The notes beneath the pieces are model-generated. The model saw only the letters and a program-made list of their open reading frames with translations, ran no database searches and was not told where the DNA came from. Below, piece by piece: positions 1,997 to 20,223 of a DNA stretch of 64,000 nt (positions within the stretch are counted from its first letter, which is position 1; each line of letters opens with the position of its first letter). Where the stretch lies: positions 77 to 64,076 of the forward strand of contig NZ_JAPZUB010000056.1 of the NCBI RefSeq assembly GCF_027533505.1, read 5' to 3'. Both the position numbers and the translations under genes were made by a program. The stretch is from Flavobacterium sp. (GTDB lineage: Bacteria; Bacteroidota; Bacteroidia; Flavobacteriales; Flavobacteriaceae).

Positions 1997-2001
1997 TAAC
2001 G

Positions 2002-2030: not shown

Positions 2031-2046
2031 CCTTAATAACCAGGGA

Positions 2047-2647: not shown

Positions 2648-2670
2648 GTAATTTTAATATTCCATTAACA

Positions 2671-3782: not shown

Positions 3783-3815
3783 AAAAAGGCTTCCTCATTC
3801 ATTAACAGGGAGCCT
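3783..3815 (-). terminator. Intrinsic terminator after phoH
   Basis: AGGCTTCCT...AGGGAGCCT stem with a T5 tail on the minus strand. Confidence 0.55.
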
Positions 3816-3840
3816 AATTCATATCTAAAATAGTCTTTCA

Positions 3841-4791: not shown

Positions 4792-4898
4792 ATGCCGTGG
4801 TTTTAGGGTTAAAAATTCCTTAGAATTACTTAGCTTTGCATGCATCTCAAATTTAAGAAAGACTGCGGTTTGTTCCCAAATTAGTTATAAACAATTTT

Positions 4899-5720: not shown

Positions 5721-5725
5721 CTATT

Positions 5726-6022
5726 ATGTTGGTTCGTATTGTAAAGCTCTCTTTTCATGAGGAGCATATTCCCACTTTTTTGACGCAATTTGAACTCATG
5801 AAATCCCACATTCGAAACAGTCCCGGCAATCGCTTATTGGAGTTGTACCAAGATGTTCAAAATCCAGGGGTTTTCTTTACTTACAGTTATTGGGATGATG
5901 AAACTGCTTTAAATCAGTATCGGCAATCGGCCTTATTTGATGAAATTTGGACGTTTACCAAAAAACTTTTCAACGACAAACCCGAAGCTTGGAGTGTGAA
6001 TAAATTAGTAAGTTTGCAATAA
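5726..6022 (+). CDS. Antibiotic-biosynthesis-monooxygenase (ABM) family protein
   Basis: 98 aa with a dimeric alpha-beta barrel pattern (PG..LLELYQD...FFTYS.W...AL..YR.S.LF). Confidence 0.8.
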   Translation: MLVRIVKLSFHEEHIPTFLTQFELMKSHIRNSPGNRLLELYQDVQNPGVFFTYSYWDDETALNQYRQSALFDEIWTFTKKLFNDKPEAWSVNKLVSLQ

Positions 6023-6062
6023 ATTTAAAAGACTGCGTTTACCTAGTAAGGAAAAATATACT

Positions 6063-6788
6063 ATGAAATCAATACTATTCAGAGAAATAAAATCGTTTTT
6101 CGGCGCTCCAGTAGGCTACTTGGTTATCGCCATTTTTTTGCTTTTGAACGGTTTATTTCTTTGGATTTTTGAAGGAGAATTCAACATTCTCAACAGTGGT
6201 TTTGCCGATATGACTCCCTTTTTCACTTTGGCGCCATGGATTTTATTGTTTTTAATACCTGCGGTGACCATGCGAAGTTTCTCGGATGAAAAAAAACAAG
6301 GTACCCTCGAATTATTACTTACCAAACCCTTGAGTCTTTGGCAAATTGTGGGTGGCAAATTTTTGGGAGCGGTTGTCCTCATTGCCCTTGCTATAGTGCC
6401 TACGCTACTTTATGCATTTGTGTTAAATGATATGGGAATGAAAGACAATCCATTTGATTTTGGGAGTACTGTTGGTGCCTATTTTGGATTGTTATTTTTA
6501 ATTTCAGGCTACGCTGCTATTGGGATTTTCACTTCTACGCTGTCTGAAAATCAAATTGTAGCTTTTATACTTTCTGTATTTCTATGTTTTCTTTTTTATT
6601 ATGGATTTGAAGGGGTCGCCGTGTTTTTTGGATCGGCTGGTGACTACATCTCAAGAATAGGTATGGAGTACCATTTTAAAAGTATGGGTAAAGGGGTTTT
6701 GGATACCCGTGACATTCTCTATTTTTCCTCTGTTGCTTTCTTTTTCTTATCGTTAACCGTTTACCAATTAAAAGGTCTTAAATCATAA
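6063..6788 (+). CDS. gldF: Gliding motility ABC transporter permease GldF
   Basis: Multi-TM protein with TMRSFSDEKKQGTLELLLTKP and GVLDTRD; directly upstream of gldG. Confidence 0.93.
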   Translation: MKSILFREIKSFFGAPVGYLVIAIFLLLNGLFLWIFEGEFNILNSGFADMTPFFTLAPWILLFLIPAVTMRSFSDEKKQGTLELLLTKPLSLWQIVGGKFLGAVVLIALAIVPTLLYAFVLNDMGMKDNPFDFGSTVGAYFGLLFLISGYAAIGIFTSTLSENQIVAFILSVFLCFLFYYGFEGVAVFFGSAGDYISRIGMEYHFKSMGKGVLDTRDILYFSSVAFFFLSLTVYQLKGLKS

Positions 6789-8464
6789 TGAAGCAAAAAC
6801 AGGCAAAACAAATCGCCATCACGCTCGTATTGTTAATCGTAATCAATGTTTTGGGGAATTTGGTCTTCAAACGGTTTGACCTTACCGCTGACCATCGGTA
6901 TACCTTATCAGCTACTTCGATGACTATTGTAGATAAAGCAAAAGAACCGCTCTATATCGATGTATATTTGGAAGGAAGTTTTCCCGGTGAATTTAAAAAA
7001 CTACAAAGTGAAACCCAACAATTGCTAGAGGAGTTTAAAGCTAAAAACAGCAATATCATCTTTCAATTTATCAACCCTTTGGAAGATGAAAACACGTCTG
7101 AAGCCACCCTTCAAAAGTTATTTGAACGTGGTTTAACTCCCATAAATATCACGGTAAATCACAAAGGAAAACAAACCGAAGAGATGGTATTCCCTTGGGC
7201 CGAGGTTCGTTACGGCGATCGTGTAACCAAAGTCCCTCTCCTTAAAAACATGATGGGTGCCTCGACAGCGCAAAAAGTAGAGAGTTCGGTGCAACATTTA
7301 GAATATGCATTTGCCAACGGATTTAATACAGTGTTGGAAAAAAGACAGAAAAAAATTGCTGTTATCAAAGGGAATGGCGAATTGCACGAGTTGTTAATAG
7401 GCGATTTTCTCCGAACGGTCAAAGAAAATTATTTTATTGGCCCTTTCACCCTGGACTCTGTGGCAACCAATCCTGTAAAAACCAATTTCGATTTACAAAA
7501 ATATGATTTAGCCCTTATTGCCAAGCCCACGGAAGCCTTTACCGATGCGGAAAAACAAGTGCTTGATCAATATATGGTAAACGGTGGAAAATCCCTATGG
7601 TTATTAGATCAGGTGAATATTGAAATGGATAGTTTGATGACCACGGGTGAAGGATTGGCTTTTCCGAGGGACTTGAATCTGGATGATTTGTTCTTTAAAT
7701 ACGGTATACGTATCAAACGTGACTTGGTTAAAGATGTCATGGCATGTCCGATCACCTTGGCCACGGGGCAACAAGGCAATGCTACACAATACAATCAGTA
7801 TCCTTGGCTGTATGCTCCCGCTGTGTATGCAGATGCCAAAAATCCGATTGTAACCAATTTGGACGTAATTAAATTTGATTTCTGTACCCCAATCGAACTT
7901 TTACAGAATTCCATACAAAAAACGGTATTACTTCACTCCTCACCCTATTCAAAAGCGGTGGGCACACCTATTCCCGTAGCTTTAAATATGGTAGCCGAAC
8001 GTCCTGAGCCGGCTTCCTTTCCGAAGGGTGGCGGGTTGATTCCGTTGGCAGTATTGTTGGAGGGACAAATGCATTCGGTCTATGAAAACCGTATCCCCGC
8101 TTTTAAAGACGCCAATTTCAAATCCGTTGGAAAACCGGGAAAAATGATTGTCATTGCCGATGGAGATGTCATTCGAAACCAATACGATAAAAACTACCAA
8201 CCTTTAGAATTAGGCTATGATAAATGGACTGGTAAAATGTATGCCAACAAAGAGTTTTTACTCAATTGCGTCAATTATTTATTAGACGACACGGGACTTA
8301 TCAACATCCGAAATAAAGAGGTGAAGTTAGCCCTATTGGATACTGAAAAAGTCAAAGAGAAGTACACCTTTACGCAAATCGTTACTGTGGTATCGCCCTT
8401 AGTGATTTTAGGTGTTTTCGGACTGTTTTTTACACTACTTCGCAAACGTCGTTATGCCCGCTAG
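6788..8464 (+). CDS. gldG: Gliding motility ABC transporter accessory protein GldG
   Basis: Motifs RFDLT.D.RYTLS and N.EFLLNCVNYLLDD plus a C-terminal TM; TAATG coupling with gldF. Confidence 0.93.
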   Translation: MKQKQAKQIAITLVLLIVINVLGNLVFKRFDLTADHRYTLSATSMTIVDKAKEPLYIDVYLEGSFPGEFKKLQSETQQLLEEFKAKNSNIIFQFINPLEDENTSEATLQKLFERGLTPINITVNHKGKQTEEMVFPWAEVRYGDRVTKVPLLKNMMGASTAQKVESSVQHLEYAFANGFNTVLEKRQKKIAVIKGNGELHELLIGDFLRTVKENYFIGPFTLDSVATNPVKTNFDLQKYDLALIAKPTEAFTDAEKQVLDQYMVNGGKSLWLLDQVNIEMDSLMTTGEGLAFPRDLNLDDLFFKYGIRIKRDLVKDVMACPITLATGQQGNATQYNQYPWLYAPAVYADAKNPIVTNLDVIKFDFCTPIELLQNSIQKTVLLHSSPYSKAVGTPIPVALNMVAERPEPASFPKGGGLIPLAVLLEGQMHSVYENRIPAFKDANFKSVGKPGKMIVIADGDVIRNQYDKNYQPLELGYDKWTGKMYANKEFLLNCVNYLLDDTGLINIRNKEVKLALLDTEKVKEKYTFTQIVTVVSPLVILGVFGLFFTLLRKRRYAR

Positions 8465-8503
8465 TGTTAATAAAAAAACTTTTTTTAATCATCCGCTTTA
8501 GGA

Positions 8504-8511
8504 TATATTTG
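8504..8511 (+). promoter_or_regulatory. -7 promoter box (TATATTTG) for dnaN
   Basis: Matches Bacteroidota TAnnTTTG and ends 15 nt before the dnaN ATG. Confidence 0.6.
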
Positions 8512-8526
8512 TAAAAAATAAAAAAA

Positions 8527-9645
8527 ATGAAATTCATTGTATCGAGTTCGTATTTATTAAAGCAACTTCAAGTTTTAGGAAGTGTTATCAACAGCAGCAA
8601 TACCTTGCCGATTTTAGATAATTTCCTGTTTGAATTGAACCAAAATGCGCTTACCGTTTCGGCCTCTGATCTAGAAACTACGATGTCAGCAACCCTTGAA
8701 ATTGAGTCTACCAATACAGGAAGTGTTGCGGTGCCTGCCAAGTTGTTGTTGGATATCTTAAAAACGTTTCCCGAGCAACCGCTAACCTTTACAGTGGAGG
8801 AAAACAATACCATCGAAATCAGTTCAAATTCAGGTAAATACGCATTAGCCTATGCGCCAGGAGAGGAGTTTCCAAAATCGGTACAGTTAGAAGATCCTTC
8901 CTCAACCCTTGTCCCCGCTGAAGTTTTGGCTACTGCGATTAGCAAAACTATTTTTGCTGCTGGAAATGACGACTTACGCCCAGTGATGTCGGGTGTGTTT
9001 TTCCAGTTTGCTCCAGAAGGATTAATTTTTGTGGCCACTGATGCGCACAAATTAGTAAAGTATGCTCGAACTGACGTTAGCGCTTCGCAAGTGGCTGATT
9101 TTATCATGCCCAAAAAACCGTTGAATATTTTAAAAAATATTTTGGGAACTTCAGACGCGGAAGTGAAAATCGAATACAACGATTCTAACGCCACGTTCTC
9201 TTTTGAAAATTACATTTTAACTTGTCGTTTGATTGATGGCAAGTATCCCAACTACGAAGCGGTGATACCTAAGGAAAACCCTAATAAGTTGATTATTGAT
9301 CGCACACAATTCTTTAACTCGGTACGTCGTGTGGCTATTTTTTCCAACAAAACCACCCACCAAATTCGATTGAAAATTGCCGGTGCCGAATTGAATATTT
9401 CAGCGGAAGATATCGATTACAGCAACAAAGCTGAGGAGCGTTTGACGTGTGATTATCAAGGTGATGACATGCAAATCGGGTTTAACTCCCGCTTTTTATT
9501 AGAAATGCTTTCCAACCTACAATCGGATGAAATTCAATTGGAAATGTCTATGCCTAACCGCGCTGGAATTCTGACGCCTGTCGATGGTTTGGATGAAGGC
9601 GAAACCGTTACTATGTTGGTGATGCCTGTGATGTTGAACAACTAA
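8527..9645 (+). CDS. dnaN: DNA polymerase III beta sliding clamp
   Basis: 372 aa with NTLPILDN, DDLRPVMSG, ATDAHKL, RLIDGKYPNY and IGFNSRFL. Confidence 0.97.
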   Translation: MKFIVSSSYLLKQLQVLGSVINSSNTLPILDNFLFELNQNALTVSASDLETTMSATLEIESTNTGSVAVPAKLLLDILKTFPEQPLTFTVEENNTIEISSNSGKYALAYAPGEEFPKSVQLEDPSSTLVPAEVLATAISKTIFAAGNDDLRPVMSGVFFQFAPEGLIFVATDAHKLVKYARTDVSASQVADFIMPKKPLNILKNILGTSDAEVKIEYNDSNATFSFENYILTCRLIDGKYPNYEAVIPKENPNKLIIDRTQFFNSVRRVAIFSNKTTHQIRLKIAGAELNISAEDIDYSNKAEERLTCDYQGDDMQIGFNSRFLLEMLSNLQSDEIQLEMSMPNRAGILTPVDGLDEGETVTMLVMPVMLNN

Positions 9646-9678
9646 ATAAAACACTAACCCAACCTTTTATACTGAAAG

Positions 9679-9707
9679 AAGCCGCTTGTTTAAAGCGGCT
9701 TTTTTTT
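9679..9707. terminator. Bidirectional terminator between dnaN and the Usp gene
   Basis: AAGCCGCTT-GTTTA-AAGCGGCTT followed by a T-run, between convergent genes. Confidence 0.8.
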
Positions 9708-10536
9708 ATTCATGCATGGCCAAAACAGGAATACTCAAATGATTGGCCATTTTCTCGGTAAAGGATTGTGCAAACAATTGGGCGAAAAATCCTTTTTTAT
9801 AAGTCATCATCGCCAATACATCAATGGAGTTTCCACTAATGAAATCAGCAATTGTTGCTTCTACATCGTCGTTGGGGATAATATGAAATTGAACGGGTTC
9901 CAACGCAAAATGGCTTTTCCAATCATCATAAGTAGCCGGCGTATTGTCGGTATCACGCGTTTCCACATACAAACATTTTACCTTGGCTTGTAATCCTTTG
10001 GCTAACTGAATAACTTCTTGCAGTGCTTTTTTATCTTTTTCTCGAAATCGAGTGGTGAATGCAATTGTTTCAATTCCGGTAAAAGAGGCTTCTTTGGGCA
10101 CGCTCAATACGGGAACCTTCAAATTAGAAATCGCTTCCGTAGTATTGGTGCCCAAAAAATATTCACTCCAACCGGAAGCACCCGCCGTACCCATCACGAC
10201 AAAATCAGCATGTTCCTCTCGAATCAATTCCTTAAGGTTAAAAACCAAATCACCATCGCGTAAAGCATGTGTCAAACGTACCCTCTCGGCCTTGTGTTTT
10301 GCCACAATCACCTTCAATTTTTCTGCTTCCACCTTGAATCGATCAAAATTAATCAACTCCAAGGAATCAAAAAGGGTCTTGTAATTTTGAGGGGCAAATT
10401 GATGGTCGACAATAGGTAATTCGTAGGTATGCAAAAGAATAATCTCTGCATGATACTGTTTTGCCAATGCAAGGGCATAACTAAATGCATTTGTGGCCAC
10501 TTCAGAGAAGTCGGTAGGGAAGACAATTTTTTTCAT
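9706..10536 (-). CDS. Universal stress protein (tandem Usp domains)
   Basis: Starts MKKIVFPTDFS, contains VVMGTAGASG and ends IPVLAM. Confidence 0.9.
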   Translation of the reverse strand: MKKIVFPTDFSEVATNAFSYALALAKQYHAEIILLHTYELPIVDHQFAPQNYKTLFDSLELINFDRFKVEAEKLKVIVAKHKAERVRLTHALRDGDLVFNLKELIREEHADFVVMGTAGASGWSEYFLGTNTTEAISNLKVPVLSVPKEASFTGIETIAFTTRFREKDKKALQEVIQLAKGLQAKVKCLYVETRDTDNTPATYDDWKSHFALEPVQFHIIPNDDVEATIADFISGNSIDVLAMMTYKKGFFAQLFAQSFTEKMANHLSIPVLAMHE

Positions 10537-10657
10537 GATTTCAGTTTTTGTCTTGTAAAATTACTTCCTACTTTCCTACAAAAACATGATAATCATCATA
10601 CTAAAGATACGATAACCTAAAATTAAAACGCAGTTAATACTCCCGAATTAATCCGAG

Positions 10658-12073
10658 CTACATTTCAAAAAACTGATCTTGAAAACCTATCAAATACAAT
10701 CGTTCCTTGGCACGGGTTACGGCGGTGTACAACCATCGTACATCCTCCATTTGAAGTCCGTCGGGAAGATAAGGTTGTTCTACAAAAACAGTATTCCATT
10801 GCCCGCCTTGTGATTTATGGCCTGTAATCGCATAGGCAAATTTTACTTGTAGCCCATTGAAATATTCATTTTGCCGTAAGTGTTCTAAGCGTTTGTATTT
10901 GGATGGTTCGTCGGCGTAATCTAGTAAAACTTCTTCATACAAGCGTTGCGATTGCTCTTGGGTCAATGAAGGAGCTTCGCTAGTTAACGTATCTAATATG
11001 AGTATCGTTTCAAAAGGGATTTGGTCAGGATAATCAACCATTCTAATTTTTACGCGCGCAAATTGAAAACCATACAGTGCTTTGAAACCATAAATTTCAA
11101 GCACTTCAATAGTATCACCGTTGGCAATAAAACCGGCTTCATCGGTCTCTTTCAACCAAAAATAATTATTTTTCACAACCATCAAATAATCCCCCACCGA
11201 GAGTTCACTCTCCTTAAACAAGATACGGGCGCGAATTTGCTGATTGTATTGATTGGCGCGTTTATTGGAACGAACGATAAAAGCAGTATCCTCAATGGAG
11301 TATTGACTGTAGGCATTATTGATGGCGTCTTGAATATCATACCCATCAACCAAGCGAATAATATCTTTGAATCCGCGCAATTGAAATTGAAATCCTTCAA
11401 AAAAAGCGTCGTGTAATACTTCGCGTAACTGGGTTGCATTCCATAATATCCCCGACTTTTCCTCTTGACGCATAACCTCGTCCAGTGTAATGGTATCGAC
11501 TTTTTTTTGATAATGAAGCGACAAGGATTCAATATTCAATGCAGGCGAATCAGTGCGATTAACGGGGGGCAACTGAGCCGTGTCGCCCAAAAGAATGAGT
11601 TTGCAATTTTGATTGTTGTAGACATAAAAAATCAAATCATCCAATAATGAACCCTGTTGATACATACCTGAACCGCCATCATAATCGGAAATCATCGAAG
11701 CTTCATCGACAATAAAAAGCGTGTTTTTATGCTTATTTTGTTGCATGGTAAAAGTGACATTACCCGCCTTTTTCTTCGGAAAATAGATTTTTTTATGGAT
11801 GGTAAATGCGGGCTTATTTGCATAATTGGATATTACTTTGGCGGCACGACCTGTTGGTGCCAACAAAACCGACTTGTATTGAATATCTGGTAAACTTTGA
11901 ACCAAAGCCGCAATCACCGTTGTTTTCCCCGTACCCGCATAGCCTTTTAATACAAAAATCGAATCGTCGTTGGGTTCAAACACAAACTTTGTTATTTTTT
12001 GAAAAAAAACATCCTGTTTCAACGTGGGTTGAAAGGGAAAAGCCTGTTGTAATCGTTGGTAAAATTTTTGCAT
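10658..12073 (-). CDS. RecD2/UvrD-like superfamily-1 ATP-dependent helicase
   Basis: Walker A GYAGTGKTT, LAPTGRAAK, VDEASM, LGDTAQLPPV, HKSQG and WLYTAVTRAK. The ORF opens at 12103; ATG at 12073 is likely. Confidence 0.88.
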   Translation of the reverse strand: MQKFYQRLQQAFPFQPTLKQDVFFQKITKFVFEPNDDSIFVLKGYAGTGKTTVIAALVQSLPDIQYKSVLLAPTGRAAKVISNYANKPAFTIHKKIYFPKKKAGNVTFTMQQNKHKNTLFIVDEASMISDYDGGSGMYQQGSLLDDLIFYVYNNQNCKLILLGDTAQLPPVNRTDSPALNIESLSLHYQKKVDTITLDEVMRQEEKSGILWNATQLREVLHDAFFEGFQFQLRGFKDIIRLVDGYDIQDAINNAYSQYSIEDTAFIVRSNKRANQYNQQIRARILFKESELSVGDYLMVVKNNYFWLKETDEAGFIANGDTIEVLEIYGFKALYGFQFARVKIRMVDYPDQIPFETILILDTLTSEAPSLTQEQSQRLYEEVLLDYADEPSKYKRLEHLRQNEYFNGLQVKFAYAITGHKSQGGQWNTVFVEQPYLPDGLQMEDVRWLYTAVTRAKERLYLIGFQDQFFEM

Positions 12074-12171
12074 AGGACAACAAAGATAGGAGTCTGTCTT
12101 CAAATTTGCCCTCTCGGAAGTCTGCCTTATATTAACAATATTTCGTAAGTTTGCCTCCTCCCGATTAGTTC

Positions 12172-12975
12172 ATGGAAAGTATACTTGATAAAACATATAA
12201 ACGCTTAGTCATTCAGGTTTCTCTGAACGGCTTGTCGTTTGCCGTCATCAATACGATTACTGAACAAATTGAGGTTTTGCAACCGCTACCCTACCCTCCT
12301 TATCAACGTAATACTCCTATCGAAGATTGGTTCACCGTAGTTTTTCACGATCATCCCGAATTGCGTCTGCGGTATGATACCATACAAATTGTTCATACCA
12401 ATGCACTCAACACTTTTGTGCCAACCCCTTTTATTGATGCAGAGTTTAAAGGAAGTTACTTGCAATTCAATACCCGGGTTTTTGAAACCGACTTTTTTGC
12501 CTTTGATACCTTGGCATCCCACGAAATGACCAATGTGTATATCCCGTATGTGAACATGAATAACTTTTTCATCGATCAATACGGTTCGTTTGATTACTGC
12601 CATGCACATTCCATTTTGGTTCAAAAATTATTGGAATACAGTAAGCATTCGGTCGAACCTGTAATGTATGTGCATCGCGCTCCTTCCCATTTTGAAATTG
12701 TAGTAATTGCGCAACGGAAGTTGTTTTTTTTCAATGCGTTTGACTATCAAACCCCTGAGGATTTTATTTATTACATATTATTTACTGCCGAGCAGTTGCA
12801 ACTTAATCCAGAGCAATTTCAATTGGAGTTGTTGGGTACATTTGAGGAAGACGATGCCTATTACCAAATGGCCTATACCTATATTCGACAGGTACAGCTC
12901 ATGCCGTTGCGCGCTATCAATAATGGGCGAAGTGAACAGGAAAACCGTCACCATTTTATTCTTGTTCACGCATGA
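12172..12975 (+). CDS. DUF3822 family protein
   Basis: Bacteroidota protein upstream of rsmD, with LFFFNAFDYQTPEDFIYYILF. Confidence 0.8.
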   Translation: MESILDKTYKRLVIQVSLNGLSFAVINTITEQIEVLQPLPYPPYQRNTPIEDWFTVVFHDHPELRLRYDTIQIVHTNALNTFVPTPFIDAEFKGSYLQFNTRVFETDFFAFDTLASHEMTNVYIPYVNMNNFFIDQYGSFDYCHAHSILVQKLLEYSKHSVEPVMYVHRAPSHFEIVVIAQRKLFFFNAFDYQTPEDFIYYILFTAEQLQLNPEQFQLELLGTFEEDDAYYQMAYTYIRQVQLMPLRAINNGRSEQENRHHFILVHA

Positions 12976-13529
12976 GAATTATTTCCGGAAAATACAAAGG
13001 GCGTCGATTGGTAGCTCCTAAAAACTTACCCGTTCGCCCCACCACGGATATGAGTAAAGAATCCTTGTTTAATATCTTGAATAACCATTTTCATTTTGCA
13101 AACTTGAAGGTGTTGGATTTATTTGCCGGAACGGGAAATATCAGTTATGAATTTGGATCCCGCGGTTGTGAAGATCTAACTTGTGTGGATGCCAACTACA
13201 GTTGCATTCAATACATTAAGAAAACAGCACAGGAACTGAACCTCAATATTACTCCGATAAAAAGTGATGTTTTTTCCTTTTTGGAACGTCATCGAGGAAA
13301 TTATGATGTGATTTTTGCTGACCCACCGTACGATATGGCAGAAAAAGATTTTCATCGATTGGTGGGGTTAATCTTTACACAAGATTTGTTGGATGAACAA
13401 GGGGTTTTGGTGGTTGAACATTCGAAGCACACCCCAATAAAAGATTTGGAAAATTTTGCCTACTATAAAAACTATGGTGCTTCGGTTTTTTCCTTTTTTG
13501 AATATCCTGAAATTGAAGACGAAGCATAA
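12972..13529 (+). CDS. rsmD: 16S rRNA m2G966 methyltransferase RsmD family
   Basis: Motifs MRIISGKYKGRRL, RPTTD, LDLFAGTG and DPPY. Confidence 0.92.
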   Translation: MRIISGKYKGRRLVAPKNLPVRPTTDMSKESLFNILNNHFHFANLKVLDLFAGTGNISYEFGSRGCEDLTCVDANYSCIQYIKKTAQELNLNITPIKSDVFSFLERHRGNYDVIFADPPYDMAEKDFHRLVGLIFTQDLLDEQGVLVVEHSKHTPIKDLENFAYYKNYGASVFSFFEYPEIEDEA

Positions 13530-13532
13530 AAA

Positions 13533-13844
13533 AGCAGACCTGTAAGCCGGATTCTGTATTCCAAATACTCGGAACCCTTATCATTTATCTAGCCGCGTTA
13601 TTACTAACGCGATCCATCTGCCTACCCCCCGGCAACGGACGAGTAACCCTTAACTGCCGGTATACATGGCATTGCACCGCATAGAGTTTACCTGATTTCA
13701 CTACAGCCGAACTGTACATCCTTTCTGTTGCACTGGTCCTTCTCGTTCAAAAAACGAGCGACGGGTGTTACCCGCTATGCTACTCTTTGGTGTCCGGACT
13801 TTCCTCTCTCCCAACGAATCGGGACAGCGATAAGGCGGTCTGCT
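13533..13844 (-). ncRNA. rnpB: RNase P RNA, bacterial type A
   Basis: The minus strand contains GAGGAAAGTCCGG, AGTGCAACAGAAAG and ACAGAATCCGGCTTA. The P1 ends are complementary (AGCAGACC / GGTCTGCT). Confidence 0.97.
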
Positions 13845-13848
13845 GGCG

Positions 13849-13856
13849 CAAAGATA
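13849..13856 (-). promoter_or_regulatory. -7 promoter box (TATCTTTG) for rnpB
   Basis: CAAAGATA on the plus strand lies immediately upstream of the rnpB 5' end. Confidence 0.7.
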
Positions 13857-14027
13857 GTTTTAATTGTTTGTAAAAAGCGGCTTTCTATTTTTAAAAAAGT
13901 AAAAGTAACTATTGGTCATGACAGCATCCATCTACAAGGCAGGATGTGAATAAGTTTTGATGAAAAAGGGATGGGGTAAGCGAACTGATTTTGTAAAAAA
14001 ACTATATTTGTAATCCAATTGAGATTC

Positions 14028-15110
14028 ATGGAACAATTTGTAGTATCTGCCCGAAAATACCGTCCGCAAACGTTTAAAGATGTTGTGGGACAGCAGGCTA
14101 TTACCAATACGTTATTGAATGCCATTGAAACCAATCACTTGGCGCAAGCGTTACTTTTTACAGGTCCTAGAGGAGTAGGAAAAACAACCTGTGCACGTAT
14201 CCTTGCCCGAAAAATCAATCAGCCAGGGTATGACGACCCCAATGAAGACTTTGCCTTTAATGTGTTTGAATTGGATGCCGCATCCAACAATTCGGTAGAT
14301 GACATTCGCAATTTGATTGATCAGGTACGCATCCCACCCCAAACGGGACAATATAAAGTGTACATCATCGACGAGGTTCACATGCTGTCCACGGCGGCTT
14401 TCAATGCGTTTTTGAAAACATTGGAAGAACCCCCAAAGCATGCCATTTTTATTTTGGCGACTACAGAAAAGCACAAAATCATTCCAACCATCTTATCGCG
14501 TTGTCAAATATTTGATTTCAAAAGAATCACCGTCAATGATGCCAAAGAGCATTTAGCGGAAGTAGCACGAAGTCAAGGGGTGCAATTTGAAGATGATGCT
14601 TTACATATCATAGCCCAAAAAGCCGATGGCGCTATGCGAGATGCCCTGTCAATTTTTGACCGTGTGGTATCCTATTGTGGAACAAATTTGACCCGTCAAG
14701 CAGTGACTGAAAATCTCAATGTATTGGATTTTGAGACTTATGTTGCGATGACCAATTTAATTTTAGCCCATGACATTCCTCAAATTTTAGTAGCTTATCA
14801 TCACGTTTTGGCCAAAGGATTTGATGGCCATCACTTTATTGTGGGTTTGGCATCGCATTTTAGAGATTTGATGGTATGTAAAAATCCAGCGACACTTGCC
14901 TTATTGGAAGCGGGAGAACAGGCACAAATGCTGTATAAAGAACAAGCTGAAAAATGTGAAAGTGACTTTTTACTAAAAGCCATAGCCTTGGCCAACGAAT
15001 GCGATTTAAAGTATAAAACATCGCAAAATCAGCGTTTATTAGTAGAACTTACTCTGATGCAATTGTGCTCCATCTCCTTTGATGGAGAAAAAAAAAAGTT
15101 GACTTCATAA
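14028..15110 (+). CDS. dnaX: DNA polymerase III gamma/tau, frame-0 (gamma-length, 360 aa) portion
   Basis: Motifs SARKYRP, GPRGVGKTT, ELDAAS, IIDEVHML and FILATTE. A TATATTTG box at 14003-14010 supports ATG 14028. Confidence 0.95.
   Translation: MEQFVVSARKYRPQTFKDVVGQQAITNTLLNAIETNHLAQALLFTGPRGVGKTTCARILARKINQPGYDDPNEDFAFNVFELDAASNNSVDDIRNLIDQVRIPPQTGQYKVYIIDEVHMLSTAAFNAFLKTLEEPPKHAIFILATTEKHKIIPTILSRCQIFDFKRITVNDAKEHLAEVARSQGVQFEDDALHIIAQKADGAMRDALSIFDRVVSYCGTNLTRQAVTENLNVLDFETYVAMTNLILAHDIPQILVAYHHVLAKGFDGHHFIVGLASHFRDLMVCKNPATLALLEAGEQAQMLYKEQAEKCESDFLLKAIALANECDLKYKTSQNQRLLVELTLMQLCSISFDGEKKKLTS
15088..15098 (+). other. Candidate recoding site in dnaX (A10 run containing in-frame A_AAA_AAG)
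   Basis: GAA AAA AAA AAG TTG ACT TCA TAA in frame 0. The -1 frame is open from 15098 to 15796. Confidence 0.75.
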
Positions 15111-15796
15111 TTCCGCCAACGTATTACAGCACAAGTAAATACTCCATCACTGAACTAAAAAATCAGAAAAAAGAAACGACATCCTCACCAGCCATTGAAA
15201 CTAGCATCCCTCAGCCTTCAGCAGCAGTGATACCGGTATCGGATCCATTGGAAGTTCCCAAATCGGATGCATCGCGTATCGAACCACCTGTTTCCAAACC
15301 TTTACAAACAATAGTGCCTGGTCAGACCGAAATAGGAAAAGTTTCGGCTTTGTCGCTATCGAGTATTCGTGCGAAAAAGGAACTGTTGGAACAGCAAAAA
15401 AATACAGTTCGCGAAGAACAAAAAGCGTTGCCAACGGAACCTTTTACAGCCACAGAACTATTGGAACAATGGTATAAATATGCCGACCGATTAAATGACA
15501 AAGGGCACAAAATTATGGAGGCATTATTGCGCATCAATGATCCGCGACTGGAAGGCACTACCATTATTCATACGTTACCCAATCAGGGGTCAAAATTGGA
15601 CTTTGACAAAGAAAAGCCTGAGCTTGTTGCATTTTTACGCGCCAAACTACACAATCATGAAATCGGACTTGAAGTCGAAGTCAATGAAGAAGTTAAAAGT
15701 AAAATTGCCTTTACGCCCCAAGATAAGTACCTTCGACTACAAGAAATCAATCCTGCATTGGAATTGTTGCGGAAACAATTTGACCTTGATGTATAA
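15098..15796 (+). CDS. dnaX: DnaX tau C-terminal portion, reached by a -1 shift; the track calls it from GTG 15227
   Basis: The -1 frame reads VDFIIPPTYY..., then a P/S/T-rich linker and LSLSSIRAKKE...LQEINPALELLRKQFDL, as expected for a tau tail. Confidence 0.7.
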   Translation, partial: VDFIIPPTYYSTSKYSITELKNQKKETTSSPAIETSIPQPSAAVIPVSDPLEVPKSDASRIEPPVSKPLQTIVPGQTEIGKVSALSLSSIRAKKELLEQQKNTVREEQKALPTEPFTATELLEQWYKYADRLNDKGHKIMEALLRINDPRLEGTTIIHTLPNQGSKLDFDKEKPELVAFLRAKLHNHEIGLEVEVNEEVKSKIAFTPQDKYLRLQEINPALELLRKQFDLDV

Positions 15797-15802
15797 CGTT
15801 TT

Positions 15803-16708
15803 TTAGAACTTTATAGATTCAATTTTTCCGTGATACATTGCCTTTACGATGCCATCGGAGAGACCAATTTTAGGAACATAGATTTTTCTAGCTCCACTCC
15901 ATTTCATGGCGTTTAAATAAATCTTTGTCGCTGGAATAATTACGTCGGCACGGTCTGTATTCAGCGCTAATTCTGCTACACGTTGTTCATAAGTCAACGA
16001 ATTTAAATATTGATATTGTGCATTTAAATACAGATAAGAAAGGGGCTGATCGGGTAATTTTCCTGACAGTTTAAAGAGCTTGTTAATGTTGCCACCAGAT
16101 CCCACTAAAATAACATCGTCATAAGGTTGACATTGGGTGCGCACCCATTCTTCGATGGCATTCCATGTTTCATCGGGAACGCGATCATTGAGTAAACGTA
16201 CGGTTCCGTTTCGGAAGGATTTGGAGGCAATCATTTTACCCTCAGAAAACAAGGAAAACTCTGTACTACCTCCCCCAACATCGACATACAAATACGTTTT
16301 GTCGGCTGTAATAAAGGAGTGTAAATCGGAGGAAGCAATGATCATGGCCTCGGTTTTTCCGTCAATAATTTCAATATCAATAGTTGCTTTTTCCTTGATG
16401 AGTTTCACCACATCGGGTCCGTTTAACGAATCGCGCATAGCCGAAGTAGCACAGGCTTTATAACGTTCAACTTTGTAGACTTTCATCAACAATCGAAATG
16501 CTTCCATGGCATCGACCATGCGTAATGCATTTTCTTGAGAAATGATTCCGGTGGTAAATGAATCTTGCCCTAGACGAATAGGCACCCGAATTAAAGAGGA
16601 CTTATTAAACTGCGGCTCTTTTCCTTCTTGCTCTACAATGTTAGTGATTAACAAGCGCATCGCATTGGAACCAATATCAATCGCAGCATATTTACGAATT
16701 GCAATCAT
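15803..16708 (-). CDS. ppx: Exopolyphosphatase Ppx/GppA family
   Basis: Motifs AIDIGSNAMRL, RLGQD, ATSAMRD, DVGGGSTE and GSGGN; adjacent to ppk1. Confidence 0.92.
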   Translation of the reverse strand: MIAIRKYAAIDIGSNAMRLLITNIVEQEGKEPQFNKSSLIRVPIRLGQDSFTTGIISQENALRMVDAMEAFRLLMKVYKVERYKACATSAMRDSLNGPDVVKLIKEKATIDIEIIDGKTEAMIIASSDLHSFITADKTYLYVDVGGGSTEFSLFSEGKMIASKSFRNGTVRLLNDRVPDETWNAIEEWVRTQCQPYDDVILVGSGGNINKLFKLSGKLPDQPLSYLYLNAQYQYLNSLTYEQRVAELALNTDRADVIIPATKIYLNAMKWSGARKIYVPKIGLSDGIVKAMYHGKIESIKF

Positions 16709-16723
16709 AGGTTTGGGGCTATA

Positions 16724-18838
16724 TTAAGGGAGTAAGGGTTGTTCATCATAGAGGCGTTGAAAATAGGCATACATTTCATATTGTGCTCTAAATACGGGCG
16801 AATGTTCATCACGCGTCCGGTAACGATTGTCTAATTTTTCGGAATGAAAACGGGCTTTCACATTTCCTTTCCATCCAATTTCAAACGTATCGATAAGAAT
16901 TTTTTTGATATCGGCTTGATAAATGGGGCAAGTAACTTCTACCCTACCGTCAAGATTTCGCGTCATAAAATCGGCCGAAGAAATATAGATATCGGGGTTC
17001 CCTTCATTTCCAAAAATAAAAACGCGGGCATGTTCTAGTAAATTATCGACGATACTTATGGCTTGAATATTCTCACTCATCCCAGGAACTCCCGGAATTA
17101 ATGAGCAAATTCCACGTATTTGCAAACGAATTTTTACCCCCGCATTACTCGCTTCATACAGTTTATCAATCATCTCAAAATCAGAGAGTGAATTCATTTT
17201 TAAATCAATCGTTGCTCCTTTGCCGAGGGTAGCATTGAGAATTTCGCGGTCAATTAATTTATAGATGCGATTTCTTGTATAATGAGGGGAAACAATAAGG
17301 TGTTTGTAGCGGTGCAAACGGTAATTGATGTCAAAAAACTCAAAAATTTTAGTAACATCTTTAAGGATTTGTTGATGACTCGTAAATAAGGTGACATCGG
17401 TATACACTTTGGCCGATGATTCATTGAAATTACCTGTAGAAATGAATCCGTATCGTTTTAACTTATGCTCTTCTATTCGTTCGACAACACAAATTTTACT
17501 GTGTACTTTTAATCCTTTGATGCCAAAAATCAATTCAATGCCTTCTTGTTGCATCATTTCTGAGTACGAAATATTACTTTCTTCATCAAAGCGGGCTTGC
17601 AATTCAATTTGAACTACAACCCGTTTGCCATTTTTAGCTGCATTAATGAGGGAACTAATAATTTGCGAGTTTTTGGCCAGACGGTATAATGTAATTTTTA
17701 TGGAAGTAACTTTAGGATCTAAGGCGGCTTCTCGTAAAAACTTAATGAGGTAAGAAAACGATTGGAAAGGGGCATACACCAAATAATCTTTTTGCGCAAT
17801 TTTTTGTAACATATTCCCCTCCAATGAAAGTCCCGGAACGGGTAGCGGTACTTTCTTTTGATACAATAAATCAAATCGTCCTAAGTTGGGGAAATCCATA
17901 TAGTCACGACGGTTGTGGTAACGTCCGCCTGGAATCACACTGTCTGATTTATCAATACCCATTCGATTAAGGAAGAAACTTAAGGTATCTTTATCAATCA
18001 TGGTATCATAGACAAACCGTACAGGTTCACCAACACGACGCTCTTTGACAGAGGACGCAATTTTCTGTAACATACTCTTATTCAAATCACTATCAATATC
18101 CAATTGGGCATCGCGAGTAATTTTGATCATGTGAGCAGAAATACTTTCGTAGTCGAAAATATTGAATATGGAACTCAAGTTATAGCGAATCACATCATCC
18201 AAAAGCATAATATATTGTTTGTTTTCAAGGGCAGGTAAAACCACAACGCGATTGATGTTTTTGGGGATTTCTATAAGGGCGTAACGGACTTCTTTCGGTT
18301 TCATTTTCCCAAATAAACCTGACTTGTTTTCGCTTCGCATAACCAATTTGACCGCCAAGTAGCCGGAGGTATCTTTTAATAGTGGAAATTCAGCCAAATC
18401 ATTTAAAATGACCGTAACTAATTCTGGACTAACATTTTGAATAAAAAAATCATGAACAAAATTTTGATGTTCTTGACAAAGTTGATTTTCGTTAACTATA
18501 ACTATATTTTCCTTTTCTAACTCTTTTTCAATGGTGCTAAGGATACGAAGACTATCGGATTGTTGCTTGATAACTATTTCAGTGATTTCTTTTACTAATT
18601 GTTGCGCAGAGATTCCGCCTAATATTTTCTCACCAGTTTGTCCAGAGAGACTTAAACGACGAATAGCCGCATAACGCACCCTGAAAAATTCATCTAAATT
18701 ATTGGAAAAAATACCTAAAAAACGAAGTCTGTCGAGCAAAGGAACTGTGGGATCAGCGGCCTCTTGAAGAACACGAGCATTGAAGGTGAGCCAACTTTTT
18801 TCGCGGTCAATATAAGTGAATTTACGTGAGTTTGTCAT
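16724..18838 (-). CDS. ppk1: Polyphosphate kinase 1
   Basis: Motifs SWLTFNARVLQEA, NLDEFFRVR, ELQARFDEE, LKVHSK, STGNFNE, LEHAR and SADFMTRN. Confidence 0.96.
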   Translation of the reverse strand: MTNSRKFTYIDREKSWLTFNARVLQEAADPTVPLLDRLRFLGIFSNNLDEFFRVRYAAIRRLSLSGQTGEKILGGISAQQLVKEITEIVIKQQSDSLRILSTIEKELEKENIVIVNENQLCQEHQNFVHDFFIQNVSPELVTVILNDLAEFPLLKDTSGYLAVKLVMRSENKSGLFGKMKPKEVRYALIEIPKNINRVVVLPALENKQYIMLLDDVIRYNLSSIFNIFDYESISAHMIKITRDAQLDIDSDLNKSMLQKIASSVKERRVGEPVRFVYDTMIDKDTLSFFLNRMGIDKSDSVIPGGRYHNRRDYMDFPNLGRFDLLYQKKVPLPVPGLSLEGNMLQKIAQKDYLVYAPFQSFSYLIKFLREAALDPKVTSIKITLYRLAKNSQIISSLINAAKNGKRVVVQIELQARFDEESNISYSEMMQQEGIELIFGIKGLKVHSKICVVERIEEHKLKRYGFISTGNFNESSAKVYTDVTLFTSHQQILKDVTKIFEFFDINYRLHRYKHLIVSPHYTRNRIYKLIDREILNATLGKGATIDLKMNSLSDFEMIDKLYEASNAGVKIRLQIRGICSLIPGVPGMSENIQAISIVDNLLEHARVFIFGNEGNPDIYISSADFMTRNLDGRVEVTCPIYQADIKKILIDTFEIGWKGNVKARFHSEKLDNRYRTRDEHSPVFRAQYEMYAYFQRLYDEQPLLP

Positions 18839-19325
18839 TTTGTAATGCGCTGGGAGTTATAAATCGTATTGTTTTTCCTTTAGTGATTGAAGCCCAACTT
18901 TCTGCTTCAAATGCAATTGTTACCCAAGCTGCTGTGGGAACATTAGGAATAAACAAGTCCCCAAATTTATTAACAAAATCTGTAATAGCATTGTTATGAC
19001 CAAAAAGAAATACCTCAGTGTATTCAGGTTTCATTTTTTTAACGAATCGTTCTAAATCGTTTACATCAAACGTATAAAGTTCCTCGACGATTTCAAGAGT
19101 TGGAAATGGCACCTCTTGATTCGCCGTGATTAGTTTTGCTGTTGCTCGAGCTCTAACTGCCGGACTTGAATAGATTTTTTGAGGCATGCATTGCTGACGA
19201 AGTAACTCTTTTCGCATATTTTCGGCATTCGTAATTCCACGTTCATTTAAGGGGCGCAATCGATCATCCAAAGGAAATTCCCAAGAAGATTTAGCATGTC
19301 GTATTAGTGAAAGACTGAATTTCAT
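18822..19325 (-). CDS. sixA: SixA-like histidine phosphatase
   Basis: Motifs LIRHAKS, SSPAVRA, GHN and VPTA. Confidence 0.85.
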   Translation of the reverse strand: MKFSLSLIRHAKSSWEFPLDDRLRPLNERGITNAENMRKELLRQQCMPQKIYSSPAVRARATAKLITANQEVPFPTLEIVEELYTFDVNDLERFVKKMKPEYTEVFLFGHNNAITDFVNKFGDLFIPNVPTAAWVTIAFEAESWASITKGKTIRFITPSALQNDKLT

Positions 19326-19504
19326 TTTTTTTGTAAGATTTTACATGTTATATATGTCTTTTTTTGCCTTTTATCCATTTTTTTTACACTTTATCGATTT
19401 TTTATTTGGTCAGCTAAATTTAACACTGTACTTACGATTTGTTAAAAGTATGCATTTTGTCGATGTTTTTTGACTTCGTTTGTAGTATTAAATGCGTTTT
19501 AACA

Positions 19505-19555
19505 TCGATGAATGCTGAAAATTATGTCGTTGAAAAACATATATTTTTCGACGAA
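19505..19555 (+). promoter_or_regulatory. Three phased direct repeats TCG(A/T)(T/C)GAA, candidate transcription-factor site
   Basis: TCGATGAA at 19505, TCGTTGAA at 19527 and TCGACGAA at 19548 (22/21-bp spacing), upstream of the adhesin operon. Confidence 0.45.
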
Positions 19556-19680
19556 TGATTGAAAAACATGGAAAAATGGAAGTTTAACGAGTTTTAGCGC
19601 AGTTCACAGATAAAATTGAAATAGCAAAACTTATCAACATAATTTTGAACAATGTTAACTTTTTCCTAAAAGTATAAAAC

Positions 19681-20223
19681 ATGAATAGTATCAACCCAAA
19701 TAAATCAAACATGAACAAACCCCATGGTTCCCGCTCGTTTTGGAGTTTTATAGTCATCACATTGACTTTATTCTTCACGTTTTCAAGCGAAGTCTTTGCA
19801 CAGGGCAGGCAAAATGCCCCATCAGTCCGATCATTAGATGCCTACATCAATGGTGGAAATGATCCCGAGCGCACGCGCTTGAAGGATTTGGTCTTCGAGG
19901 TACAGTCCTCGGTTTACTTTTTCGACAACGTAGTCAAAACCTACGGTAGTACACCTGTAAATGTCTATACTGACTTCAACGGATTTATCCGTTTACCACA
20001 GGCAAATTTTCAAAAACAAACCATCGAATTGATTACTATTCGCATTGACGAACCTTCCCAAATTATCGGTGCATTAAATTTGAATACGCTATCAAGTTTC
20101 ACCAAGCTTCGTTATGTGTATGTGTTAACAGCTTTTCCATACACGCTACCTCAAATTTCGCAGGTAGTAACGTCAGCTGGAACAAACTATATTGTTGTAT
20201 TTAAAAGCGAACCTGGATCTTAA
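19681..20223 (+). CDS. Hypothetical exported protein heading the T9SS adhesin operon
   Basis: 180-aa ORF with a hydrophobic signal segment ending VFAQ; 26 nt upstream of the adhesin ATG. Confidence 0.7.
   Translation: MNSINPNKSNMNKPHGSRSFWSFIVITLTLFFTFSSEVFAQGRQNAPSVRSLDAYINGGNDPERTRLKDLVFEVQSSVYFFDNVVKTYGSTPVNVYTDFNGFIRLPQANFQKQTIELITIRIDEPSQIIGALNLNTLSSFTKLRYVYVLTAFPYTLPQISQVVTSAGTNYIVVFKSEPGS

What the first reader, a model, noticed from the sequence alone, without database searches (positions are those of the whole stretch)
15081..15796. dnaX recoding with inverted logic: gamma by default, tau only after a -1 shift at A10
Seen: frame 0 ends ...DGEKKKLTS* at 15110 (360 aa). The run G-A10-G (15088-15097) contains an in-frame A_AAA_AAG. 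The -1 frame has no stop from 15098 to 15796, so one extra A gives a 589-aa tau (...EKKKVDFIIPPTYY...). Established: E. coli dnaX makes gamma by -1 frameshifting at A_AAA_AAG, and Thermus uses transcriptional slippage on an A run. Inference: here the full-length tau, which is normally essential, depends on recoding. Standard annotation would split the gene into two.
Basis: partly seen in the sequence, partly recalled or inferred. Interest (0 to 1): 0.7.

Follow-up and report, generated by a model that had tools for sequence, protein, structure and literature searches.

The report
Split dnaX gene needing slippage for tau
The replication clamp-loader gene dnaX of this freshwater Flavobacterium-like bacterium really is broken by a run of ten A's, so the short gamma protein is the default product and the long tau protein needs one extra A in the RNA (or a ribosome slip); this reversed arrangement was already described in 2013 for other Flavobacterium species.

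Summary
dnaX (14028-15110) ends 3 codons after G-A10-G (15088-15097). The -1 frame continues to 15796, and the join gives a 589-aa protein collinear with full-length DnaX of relatives.

It is not an assembly error. DNA contigs from 9 independent metagenome studies, and 16 contigs carrying the identical 360-aa product, all have A10.

The architecture is conserved. Of 86 Bacteroidota loci, 67 have exactly A10 at this junction, with tau in frame 0 (40), -1 (24) or +1 (3). The two non-tau frames stop within a median of 2 codons.

The reversed layout is already published (Antonov et al. 2013, including F. johnsoniae and F. psychrophilum; Atkins et al. 2016 review). This is a new member of a known kind.

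The mechanism is more likely transcriptional slippage than the E. coli-type -1 ribosomal frameshift:
- the codon phase of the run varies between lineages;
- a +1 class exists;
- there is no 3' stem-loop and no Rfam dnaX-element hit;
- metatranscriptome contigs carry A10, A11 and A12 side by side, while DNA shows only A10.

One added detail: a 7-bp hairpin (15068-15087) abuts the run and recurs across lineages. It may stimulate slippage, but it could also cause a reverse-transcriptase artefact in the RNA data.

The parts
14028..15110 (+). dnaX frame-0 ORF: gamma, 360 aa, clamp-loader domains I-III. An alternative TTG start lies at 14019.
   Evidence: ORF list. Pfam DNA_pol3_delta2, AAA and DNAX_ATPase_lid. 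NCBIfam NF011531 positions 1-369 and TIGR02397. Residues 4-345 align to E. coli DnaX 3-355 in PDB 1jr3 and 3glh.
15068..15087 (+). Predicted RNA hairpin CUCCAUC-N6-GAUGGAG (7 bp) whose 3' arm ends on the base before the A run.
   Evidence: Fold of 15030-15087: -15.7 kcal/mol, z = -2.72. 34 of 73 loci have a hairpin with at least 5 bp ending within 3 nt of the run, against 13% at control positions (Fisher p = 1e-11). 86% of cells are paired and 2 pairs show double changes. The Ile codon is ATC in 19 of 21 cases against a 22% background.
15088..15097 (+). A10 slippage-prone run, the recoding site.
   Evidence: Sequence. A10 in 67 of 86 Bacteroidota loci. DNA contigs show A10 only. RNA contigs show A10, A11 and A12.
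15092..15098 (+). In-phase A_AAA_AAG heptamer, a possible secondary -1 ribosomal frameshift site.
   Evidence: Codon phasing. The heptamer is in phase in only 10 of 26 tau(-1) loci.
15108..15110 (+). TAA stop of frame 0, which ends gamma 3 codons after the run.
15100..15102 (+). TGA stop of the +1 frame, which ends the products of A9 and A12 transcripts (...EKKS*, ...EKKKS*).
15098..15796 (+). -1-frame segment encoding the tau-specific 232 aa, with stop TAA at 15794-15796. Its layout is a conserved junction peptide, a variable linker and a folded C-terminal domain.
   Evidence: Translation. NF011531 positions 397-613. Collinear with full-length Flavobacterium DnaX of 573-623 aa, and the junction DGEKKK.DFIIPPTYY is conserved. 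Homologues carry PF28557.
15431..15793 (+). Folded C-terminal domain of tau (residues 112-232 of the -1 part).
   Evidence: AF2 block-mean pLDDT is about 78-95 over this stretch. The best Foldseek matches are DnaA domain I (4tps_D, probability 1.0, TMt 0.67) and DciA, with weak matches to E. coli tau domain V (5fku_E, 2aya). No match reaches E <= 0.001.

Best explanation
This is a genuine two-ORF dnaX. Faithful transcription and translation of the DNA give gamma (360 aa, clamp-loader domains I-III), which ends 3 codons after an A10 run.

Tau (589 aa) is made from the subset of mRNAs in which RNA polymerase slipped on the T10 template and added one A (A11; also A8 or A14). That brings the 232-codon downstream segment into frame. 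A12, A9 and A13 transcripts give gamma-like products.

The 7-bp nascent-RNA hairpin that abuts the run probably promotes the slippage. Its geometry resembles an intrinsic terminator, with a stem followed by a homopolymer that fills the 9-10 bp hybrid.

Ribosomal -1 slippage on the in-phase A_AAA_AAG may add a minor share.

Shown here: the architecture, its conservation, A10 in DNA, and mixed run lengths in RNA assemblies. Inferred: that the RNA variants arise during transcription, that the hairpin stimulates slippage, and the tau:gamma ratio.
For: 1. The two halves form one DnaX. NF011531 matches 1-369 and 397-613. All 120 listed hits (the best-scoring of 8000 scored) are continuous 573-623-aa proteins with the same junction peptide.

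2. The DNA really is A10. Ten runs from 9 studies show no gaps over the run. The 6 fetched contigs differ by 0-24 SNPs from the window and all have A10, and 16 contigs encode the identical 360-aa product.

3. The run is conserved whatever the frame. Across 86 loci the counts are A10/tau 0 = 40, A10/tau -1 = 24, A10/tau +1 = 3, A11/tau 0 = 4 and A12/tau -1 = 2. The non-tau frames stop after a median of 2 and at most 13 codons.

4. Close relatives flip frame by an indel in or next to the run. L038 has A10+GCTGAC and is split. F. buctense L084 has A11+GCTGAC and is in frame. F. wongokense L085 has A10+GCCTGAC and is in frame.

5. The mechanism looks phase-independent. The run starts at codon position 0, 1 or 2 in 4, 14 and 8 of the tau(-1) loci. 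An in-phase A_AAA_AAG is present in only 10 of 26.

6. RNA assemblies are mixed.
- X24 has an A11 contig with flanks identical to the window.
- X38 and X44 hold co-existing short contigs with +0, +1 and +2 A. The +1 A share is 21 of 52 in X38 and 10 of 42 in X44; +2 A is 7 of 42 in X44.
- Seven RNA contigs laid on this window, in six runs of four studies, stop aligning at 15097.
- Over 20 kb this is the only site with partial-depth indels in more than one RNA run.

7. The hairpin abuts the run and is enriched across lineages.

8. There is precedent. T. thermophilus dnaX uses A9 slippage, reversed dnaX with A10 is described, and a nascent-RNA stem-loop is known to stimulate slippage.
Against: - All RNA evidence comes from assembled contigs at low depth (about 3-14x), not raw reads, and none is from a sample that also gave DNA.
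- X38 and X44 contain at least two related strains, so some length variants could be genomic.
- Reverse transcriptase also slips on homopolymers. Template structure ahead of the enzyme is reported to stimulate this (PMC5737552 abstract). That is exactly the position of this hairpin relative to the run during cDNA synthesis, so the RNA heterogeneity could be partly an artefact.
- The in-phase A_AAA_AAG is the most shift-prone -1 heptamer in E. coli, so ribosomal frameshifting is not excluded for this locus.
- Hairpin covariation is modest: 2 pairs with double changes, and 6 of 500 shuffles reach the score. It overlaps a conserved peptide.
- No protein-level evidence exists for either product.
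Confidence: 0.68

Rival explanations
1. E. coli-like programmed -1 ribosomal frameshifting on A_AAA_AAG (15092-15098) is the main route to tau. The mRNA is homogeneous A10.
For: The heptamer is in phase with frame 0. [quoted passage not shown] A GGAG lies just upstream. The Atkins 2016 review words the reversed dnaX cases as tau 'derived from frameshifting'.
Against: - No 3' stem-loop is predicted: 15098-15160 folds at -3.6 kcal/mol, z = 0.00.
- Rfam's DnaX frameshift element does not match, even at E <= 10.
- The GGAG ends 4 nt before the heptamer, not about 10 nt as in E. coli. The E. coli spacing is from my own knowledge.
- Only 10 of 26 tau(-1) loci keep the in-phase heptamer.
- Three A10 loci and one A9 locus need the +1 frame.
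- A10 is conserved equally where tau is in frame 0.
- RNA contigs with A11 and A12 exist.
Confidence: 0.17
2. Homopolymer sequencing or assembly error: the true genome has A11 and an ordinary continuous dnaX.
For: A close relative's contig (L081, 76% aa identity) and F. buctense (L084) have A11 in frame with near-identical flanks. Homopolymers are error-prone.
Against: Ten DNA runs from 9 independent studies give A10 with no indel, at depths up to 187x. These include strain variants with up to 24 SNPs in 1769 nt. Sixteen contigs encode the identical 360-aa ORF. Twenty-four other loci share the A10/-1 layout. The layout was published for finished Flavobacterium genomes.
Confidence: 0.02
3. Split gene or pseudogene: gamma alone is made from ORF1, and the distal part is translated separately from GTG 15227 or not at all.
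For: Gene callers report a 189-aa ORF from GTG 15227 carrying PF28557.
Against: The -1 frame is open from 15083. The 22 residues right after the run (VDFIIPPTYY..YSI.E) are conserved in all 120 listed full-length homologues, upstream of the GTG. A tau tail unlinked to the clamp-loader domains could not tether polymerase to the clamp loader (established DnaX biology, my own knowledge). The layout recurs in 24 or more genomes with the stop placement conserved.
Confidence: 0.03
4. DNA-level phase variation: replication slippage gives A10 and A11 subpopulations, and the tau-proficient cells carry A11 DNA.
For: Run length and frame flip between related species. RNA runs hold mixed lengths that could reflect mixed genomes.
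Against: No DNA contig shows an A11 branch in 9 studies, although contigs drop rare variants. dnaX is essential in every cell, so an OFF state for tau would be lethal rather than adaptive (inference).
Confidence: 0.04

Closest known systems
Two-ORF dnaX with a poly-A junction, in which tau requires recoding (Antonov et al. 2013, NAR, PMC3711429; cited in Atkins et al. 2016)
   Same: dnaX is split into two ORFs with a -1 shift at an A10 run. The frame-0 stop lies just after the run. It occurs in Flavobacterium (F. johnsoniae, F. psychrophilum), Cytophaga, Chlorobi and others, and transcriptional realignment was the predicted mechanism.
   Different: Nothing essential differs. This is another, uncultured freshwater member. 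Added here: the census of frame classes around a fixed A10, the frame flips between sister species, the upstream hairpin, and the DNA-versus-RNA contig comparison.
Thermus thermophilus dnaX transcriptional slippage (Larsen et al. 2000, PNAS; summarised in PMC1088944)
   Same: A long A run at the gamma/tau junction, stops close by in both other frames, and a population of mRNAs with variable A number.
   Different: In Thermus the run is A9 and tau is the DNA-encoded frame. Here the run is A10 and gamma is the DNA-encoded frame.
E. coli dnaX -1 programmed ribosomal frameshift (Rfam DnaX element)
   Same: The same gene, the same in-phase A_AAA_AAG heptamer, and two products that share an N-terminus.
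   Different: The roles are reversed. No 3' stem-loop is predicted, the SD-like element is not at the E. coli spacing, and there is no Rfam match. The site lies at the end of domain III (about E. coli residue 355) rather than residue 430 (my own knowledge).
Shigella flexneri mxiE; Citrobacter rodentium tssM
   Same: Transcriptional slippage on a homopolymer is needed to fuse two ORFs and make the longer, functional protein (title and abstract).
   Different: Different genes. Those runs are T/A tracts in virulence regulators or T6SS genes and are not conserved across a phylum.
Roseiflexus IS630 stem-loop-stimulated transcriptional slippage (Penno et al. 2015, as described in Atkins 2016, Fig. 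18)
   Same: A nascent-RNA hairpin directly 5' of the slippage motif, proposed to melt the upstream end of the RNA-DNA hybrid.
   Different: There the motif is U5C4 in a transposase gene and the dependence on the hairpin was shown experimentally. Here the hairpin is only predicted and statistically enriched.

Membership tests
Two-ORF (tau-by-recoding) dnaX of Antonov et al. 2013 | The gene is a dnaX orthologue. | tested here: met
   NF011531, TIGR02397 and Pfam hits. 76% identity to Flavobacterium DnaX. Same synteny with ppx and ppk as F. sangjuense.
Two-ORF (tau-by-recoding) dnaX of Antonov et al. 2013 | The tau-specific part lies in the -1 frame of the DNA, in a second ORF adjacent to the gamma ORF. 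| tested here: met
Two-ORF (tau-by-recoding) dnaX of Antonov et al. 2013 | A poly-A tract (typically A10) at the frame junction. | tested here: met
   A10 at 15088-15097. It aligns with the published F. johnsoniae and F. psychrophilum motifs.
Two-ORF (tau-by-recoding) dnaX of Antonov et al. 2013 | The frame break is conserved in orthologues, so it is not a one-off mutation or error. | tested here: met
   24 A10/-1 loci, including L038, L011-L014 and L017. Nine DNA studies agree.
Two-ORF (tau-by-recoding) dnaX of Antonov et al. 2013 | Full-length tau is actually produced. | not testable with these tools
   No proteomic data. Only RNA contigs with A11 are available.
Thermus-type dnaX transcriptional slippage | A homopolymer of at least 9 A with stops close by in both non-tau frames. 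| tested here: met
   A10. Stops come 3 codons (frame 0) and 1 codon (+1 frame) after the run.
Thermus-type dnaX transcriptional slippage | A heterogeneous mRNA population differing in A number, from a homogeneous DNA template. | tested here: inconclusive
   RNA contigs show A10, A11 and A12, while DNA contigs show A10 only. However, these are contigs rather than reads, the samples differ, and an RT artefact is possible.
Thermus-type dnaX transcriptional slippage | Tau is encoded in the zero frame. | tested here: not met
   Tau is in the -1 frame.
E. coli-type dnaX -1 PRF cassette | In-phase A_AAA_AAG. | tested here: met
   15092-15098.
E. coli-type dnaX -1 PRF cassette | A stimulatory stem-loop a few nt 3' of the heptamer. 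| tested here: not met
   z = 0.00 for 15098-15160.
E. coli-type dnaX -1 PRF cassette | A match to the Rfam DnaX frameshifting element. | tested here: not met
   No such hit at gathering score or at E <= 10.
E. coli-type dnaX -1 PRF cassette | An SD-like stimulator about 10 nt 5' of the heptamer. | tested here: not met
   The only SD-like GGAG (15084-15087) ends 4 nt before the heptamer. The E. coli spacing is from my own knowledge.
Stem-loop-stimulated transcriptional slippage (Penno 2015 type) | A nascent-RNA hairpin immediately 5' of the slippage motif. | tested here: met
   A 7-bp stem at 15068-15087 ends at the base before the run.
Stem-loop-stimulated transcriptional slippage (Penno 2015 type) | The hairpin is conserved or covarying in relatives. 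| tested here: inconclusive
   Enriched at 47% against 13% at controls. In lineages without the GATGGAG flank the figure is 32%, p = 2e-4. Covariation is modest. There is synonymous codon bias. The hairpin overlaps a conserved peptide.
Stem-loop-stimulated transcriptional slippage (Penno 2015 type) | Slippage efficiency depends on the hairpin. | not testable with these tools
   Needs mutagenesis.

The most novel reading that the evidence does not exclude
Across Bacteroidota, dnaX carries a fixed module: a nascent-RNA hairpin, exactly A10, and stops in two frames. This module makes RNA polymerase spread transcripts over all three frames at high frequency. Which frame the DNA encodes for tau then becomes nearly neutral and flips freely between sister species (A10 to A11, or a 1-nt indel next to the run). 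The hairpin would be a conserved, terminator-like stimulator of slippage in an essential chromosomal gene. To my knowledge, and in the papers searched, this has not been described for dnaX.
Probability: 0.35. Interest if true: 0.55.

Novelty: new member of a known kind. Interest (0 to 1): 0.35.

Why it matters
Tau is the subunit that couples the polymerase cores and the helicase to the clamp loader. A genome in which it can be made only through a decoding 'error' shows how far cells can rely on programmed infidelity for an essential protein.

In practice, annotation pipelines split this gene. Bacteroidota genomes then appear to lack tau, or to carry a dnaX pseudogene plus a DUF8439 orphan ORF. 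Flagging the A10 junction would correct many annotations.

The case itself is not new (Antonov 2013). What would be new if confirmed:
- A10 is fixed across the phylum while the encoded frame drifts.
- A hairpin abuts the run.

Both are testable in Flavobacterium johnsoniae. They would link slippage mechanistically to intrinsic termination.

Tried and rejected
- Raw reads: none of the runs that hold this sequence is kept as raw reads, only Logan contigs. True A-length distributions could not be counted.
- No DNA run from the same studies as the RNA runs (P10, P11, P12, P15) was offered, so there is no paired DNA/RNA comparison.
- Rfam over the whole window and the junction found only RNase P RNA and nothing at the junction.
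- The downstream RNA structure search was negative.
- tRNA-Lys repertoire: there are no tRNA genes in the window, so the single-tRNA-Lys argument for AAG slipperiness could not be tested.
- Pfam on the -1 part gave no hit. PDB sequence search of the -1 part gave no hit. The fold search gave only sub-threshold matches: DnaA domain I, DciA and tau domain V. I treat these as weak support for a tau domain-V-like fold, not as proof.
- The column-wise covariation test of the hairpin was only suggestive. Hairpins in distant lineages are in different registers and cannot be put in one alignment.
- A control at other homopolymers showed no indel at the A8/T8 runs in 1-20000, but coverage there is patchy. 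RNA contigs also break at the A8 at 805-812, which I did not follow up.
- A literature search for later experimental work on Flavobacterium dnaX slippage found none in the held library.
Full report
**1. What is in the sequence**

- Positions 15088-15097 are ten As flanked by G on both sides.
- The upstream ORF is 360 aa from ATG 14028, or 363 aa from TTG 14019. It reads ...GAT GGA GAA AAA AAA AAG TTG ACT TCA TAA and stops at 15108-15110.
- The heptamer A_AAA_AAG (15092-15098) is in phase.
- The -1 frame is open from 15083 to TAA 15794-15796.
- The +1 frame stops at TGA 15100-15102.
- This is the only A/T run of 10 or more in the window. The three A9/T9 runs are intergenic. A/T runs of 9 or more are rarer than in shuffled sequence (5 matches against 19.6 expected).

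**2. What the two halves are**

The N part:
- It has the DNA_pol3_delta2, AAA and DnaX-lid domains.
- It matches the Bacteroidota DnaX equivalog NF011531 at model positions 1-369 of 614.
- It aligns to E. coli DnaX residues 3-355, the crystallised domain I-III clamp-loader core.

The -1 part:
- It matches NF011531 positions 397-613.
- Joined after EKKK, the 589-aa protein is 70-76% identical over 100% of its length to continuous 573-623-aa DnaX proteins of Flavobacterium.
- The junction, DGEKKK-x-DFIIPPTYY..YSI.E, is conserved in all 120 listed homologues. Translation therefore enters the -1 frame at the run, not at the GTG at 15227.
- An AF2 model shows about 110 disordered linker residues followed by a confident alpha/beta domain.
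- The best structural matches of that domain are DnaA domain I and DciA, with weak matches to E. coli tau domain V. All are below significance.

Synteny (rsmD-like methyltransferase, RNase P RNA, dnaX, ppx, ppk) matches Flavobacterium genomes.

**3. Not an artefact**

- Logan contigs of ten DNA runs from nine independent freshwater metagenome studies cover the run with no indel, at depths up to 187x.
- Sixteen contigs in JGI and Logan assemblies encode the identical 360-aa product.
- The six contigs that were fetched differ from the window by 0-24 SNPs over 1769 nt and all have A10.

**4. Comparative anatomy**

I examined 85 related loci plus the window (analysis).
- 67 have exactly A10 at the gamma/tau junction. 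In 40 of these tau is in frame 0, in 24 it is in frame -1 (as here) and in 3 it is in frame +1.
- Four have A11 (tau frame 0), two have A12 (-1), two have A9 and one has A7.
- Ten, mostly Bacteroidales MAGs, have no run.
- In the two non-tau frames a stop follows after a median of 2 and at most 13 codons.

Sister taxa flip frame by one base in or next to the run:
- L038 (91% N-part identity to the window) has A10+GCTGAC and is split.
- F. buctense has A11+GCTGAC and is in frame.
- F. wongokense has A10+GCCTGAC and is in frame.
- L081 has the window's flanks with A11.

Among the 26 tau(-1) loci, the run begins at codon position 0, 1 or 2 in 4, 14 and 8 loci. Only 10 keep an in-phase A_AAA_AAG.

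So the length of the run is held at 10, while its codon phase, the base after it and the encoded tau frame all vary. This is what a transcription-level mechanism predicts, and it is hard to fit to a single ribosomal shift.

**5. RNA versus DNA**

Metatranscriptome assemblies behave differently from the DNA assemblies.
- Run X24 has a contig with flanks identical to the window and one extra A.
- X38 and X44, from two further studies, each hold a cluster of 31-50-nt contigs across 15068-15117 with +0, +1 and, in X44, +2 As. The rough depth shares are +1 A at 21 of 52 (X38) and 10 of 42 (X44), and +2 A at 7 of 42.
- X29 has a 93%-identical relative with +3 As.
- Seven RNA contigs laid on this window, in six runs of four studies, stop aligning at 15097, the last A. 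A de Bruijn graph branches there if the next base is G in some molecules and A in others.
- Over 20 kb in four RNA runs, this is the only site with partial-depth indels in more than one run.
- By translation, A11 gives tau (589 aa). A12, A9 and A13 give 358-, 357- and 361-aa gamma-like products.

Caveats:
- These are contigs at low depth, not reads.
- No DNA is available from the same samples.
- X38 and X44 contain at least two strains.
- Reverse transcriptases slip on such motifs when RNA structure lies ahead of them (PMC5737552 abstract). The hairpin described next is in exactly that position during cDNA synthesis.

**6. A hairpin abutting the run**

- CUCCAUC-N6-GAUGGAG (15068-15087) is predicted to pair. 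Its last base pair is adjacent to the first A. The 58-nt stretch 15030-15087 that contains it folds at -15.7 kcal/mol, z = -2.7.
- In 73 loci with a run of 9 or more, the 32 nt upstream fold better than control segments (-6.2 against -3.1 kcal/mol, p = 1e-16).
- 47% have a hairpin of at least 5 bp ending within 3 nt of the run, against 13% at 2920 control positions (p = 1e-11).
- Excluding the Flavobacteriaceae GATGGAG type, the figure is still 32% (p = 2e-4).
- Within Flavobacteriaceae, 86% of cells pair. Two pairs show double changes (for example Ile...Asp ATC/GAT to Leu...Gln CTG/CAG), and 6 of 500 shuffles reach the covariation score.
- The Ile codon in the stem is ATC in 19 of 21 cases, against 22% ATC in the same genes. 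The Gly codon is GGA in 17 of 22 cases, against 35%.
- There is no structure downstream (z = 0.0) and no Rfam DnaX-element match.
- A stem directly followed by a homopolymer long enough to fill the 9-10 bp RNA-DNA hybrid is the geometry described for stem-loop-stimulated slippage (Atkins 2016, Fig. 18).
- That the hairpin acts this way here is inference.

**7. What is already known**

- Antonov et al. [quoted passage not shown] They found 17 genes in 12 genera. Nine have A10, among them F. johnsoniae, F. psychrophilum, Cytophaga hutchinsonii and Chlorobi. They proposed transcriptional realignment by analogy with Thermus.
- Atkins et al. 2016 restate this. [quoted passage not shown]
- T. thermophilus A9 slippage is the experimental precedent.
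- I found no later experimental study of the reversed form in the searchable library.

**8. Verdict**

The finding is real and correctly described. It is a further member of a published class, not a new kind.

The most likely mechanism is transcriptional slippage on A10, with a possible minor ribosomal contribution. Confidence is about 0.68 for slippage as the main route. I put the probability that tau needs recoding at this site at all above 0.9.

Modestly new material:
- the phylum-wide fixation of A10 with a drifting frame;
- the frame flips between sister species;
- the conserved hairpin next to the run;
- the environmental DNA-versus-RNA contrast.

Interest is 0.35.

Noticed in passing
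window 13527-13846 (- strand): Bacterial RNase P RNA class A (RF00010, 193.9 bits) lies just upstream of dnaX. It is by far the most abundant RNA of the region in metatranscriptomes (bin depth up to 51,441 in X44)..
   Followed up: partly
window 15087: One RNA contig (run X39, depth 3) has G15087>A with no length change. This turns GAG+A10 into GA+A12 and removes the closing pair of the hairpin. It could be a strain SNP or an error; the cause was not resolved.
   Followed up: no
window 805-812: RNA contigs break on either side of an A8 run: X39 ends at 804 and X38 starts at 814. This could be a gene boundary or heterogeneity at another homopolymer.
   Followed up: no
window 28471-28479, 29845-29853, 47617-47625: All other A/T runs of 9 in the window fall between ORFs. 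The dnaX A10 is therefore the only long homopolymer inside a coding region, consistent with selection against such runs in genes.
   Followed up: partly
L015 1514-1522 (Flavobacterium sp. YO12); L046, L047, L072: These are dnaX loci in which tau lies in the +1 frame: A9 in L015 and A10 in the others. They would need loss of one A or gain of two. L015 differs from its A10/-1 relatives only by one A, so it may be an assembly error or a real third class.
   Followed up: partly
L040, L042, L050, L060, L061, L064, L069, L073, L077, L080: Ten loci, mostly Bacteroidales or Bacteroidaceae MAGs, have no A run of 7 or more at the junction. How, or whether, they make gamma is open. L064 and L059 carry the same species name (Chryseobacterium ginsenosidimutans) but have very different dnaX loci: 45% identity with no run, against a split A10.
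   Followed up: no
window 15098-15163 (-1 frame): The first 22 tau-specific residues (VDFIIPPTYY..YSI.E) are as conserved as the catalytic domains, yet they precede a long disordered, variable linker. Their function is unknown, and they are exactly what gamma lacks.
   Followed up: no
window 15803-18838 (- strand): ppx/gppA (301 aa) and ppk1 (704 aa) converge on the 3' end of dnaX. Only 6 nt separate the dnaX tau stop from the ppx stop.
   Followed up: no
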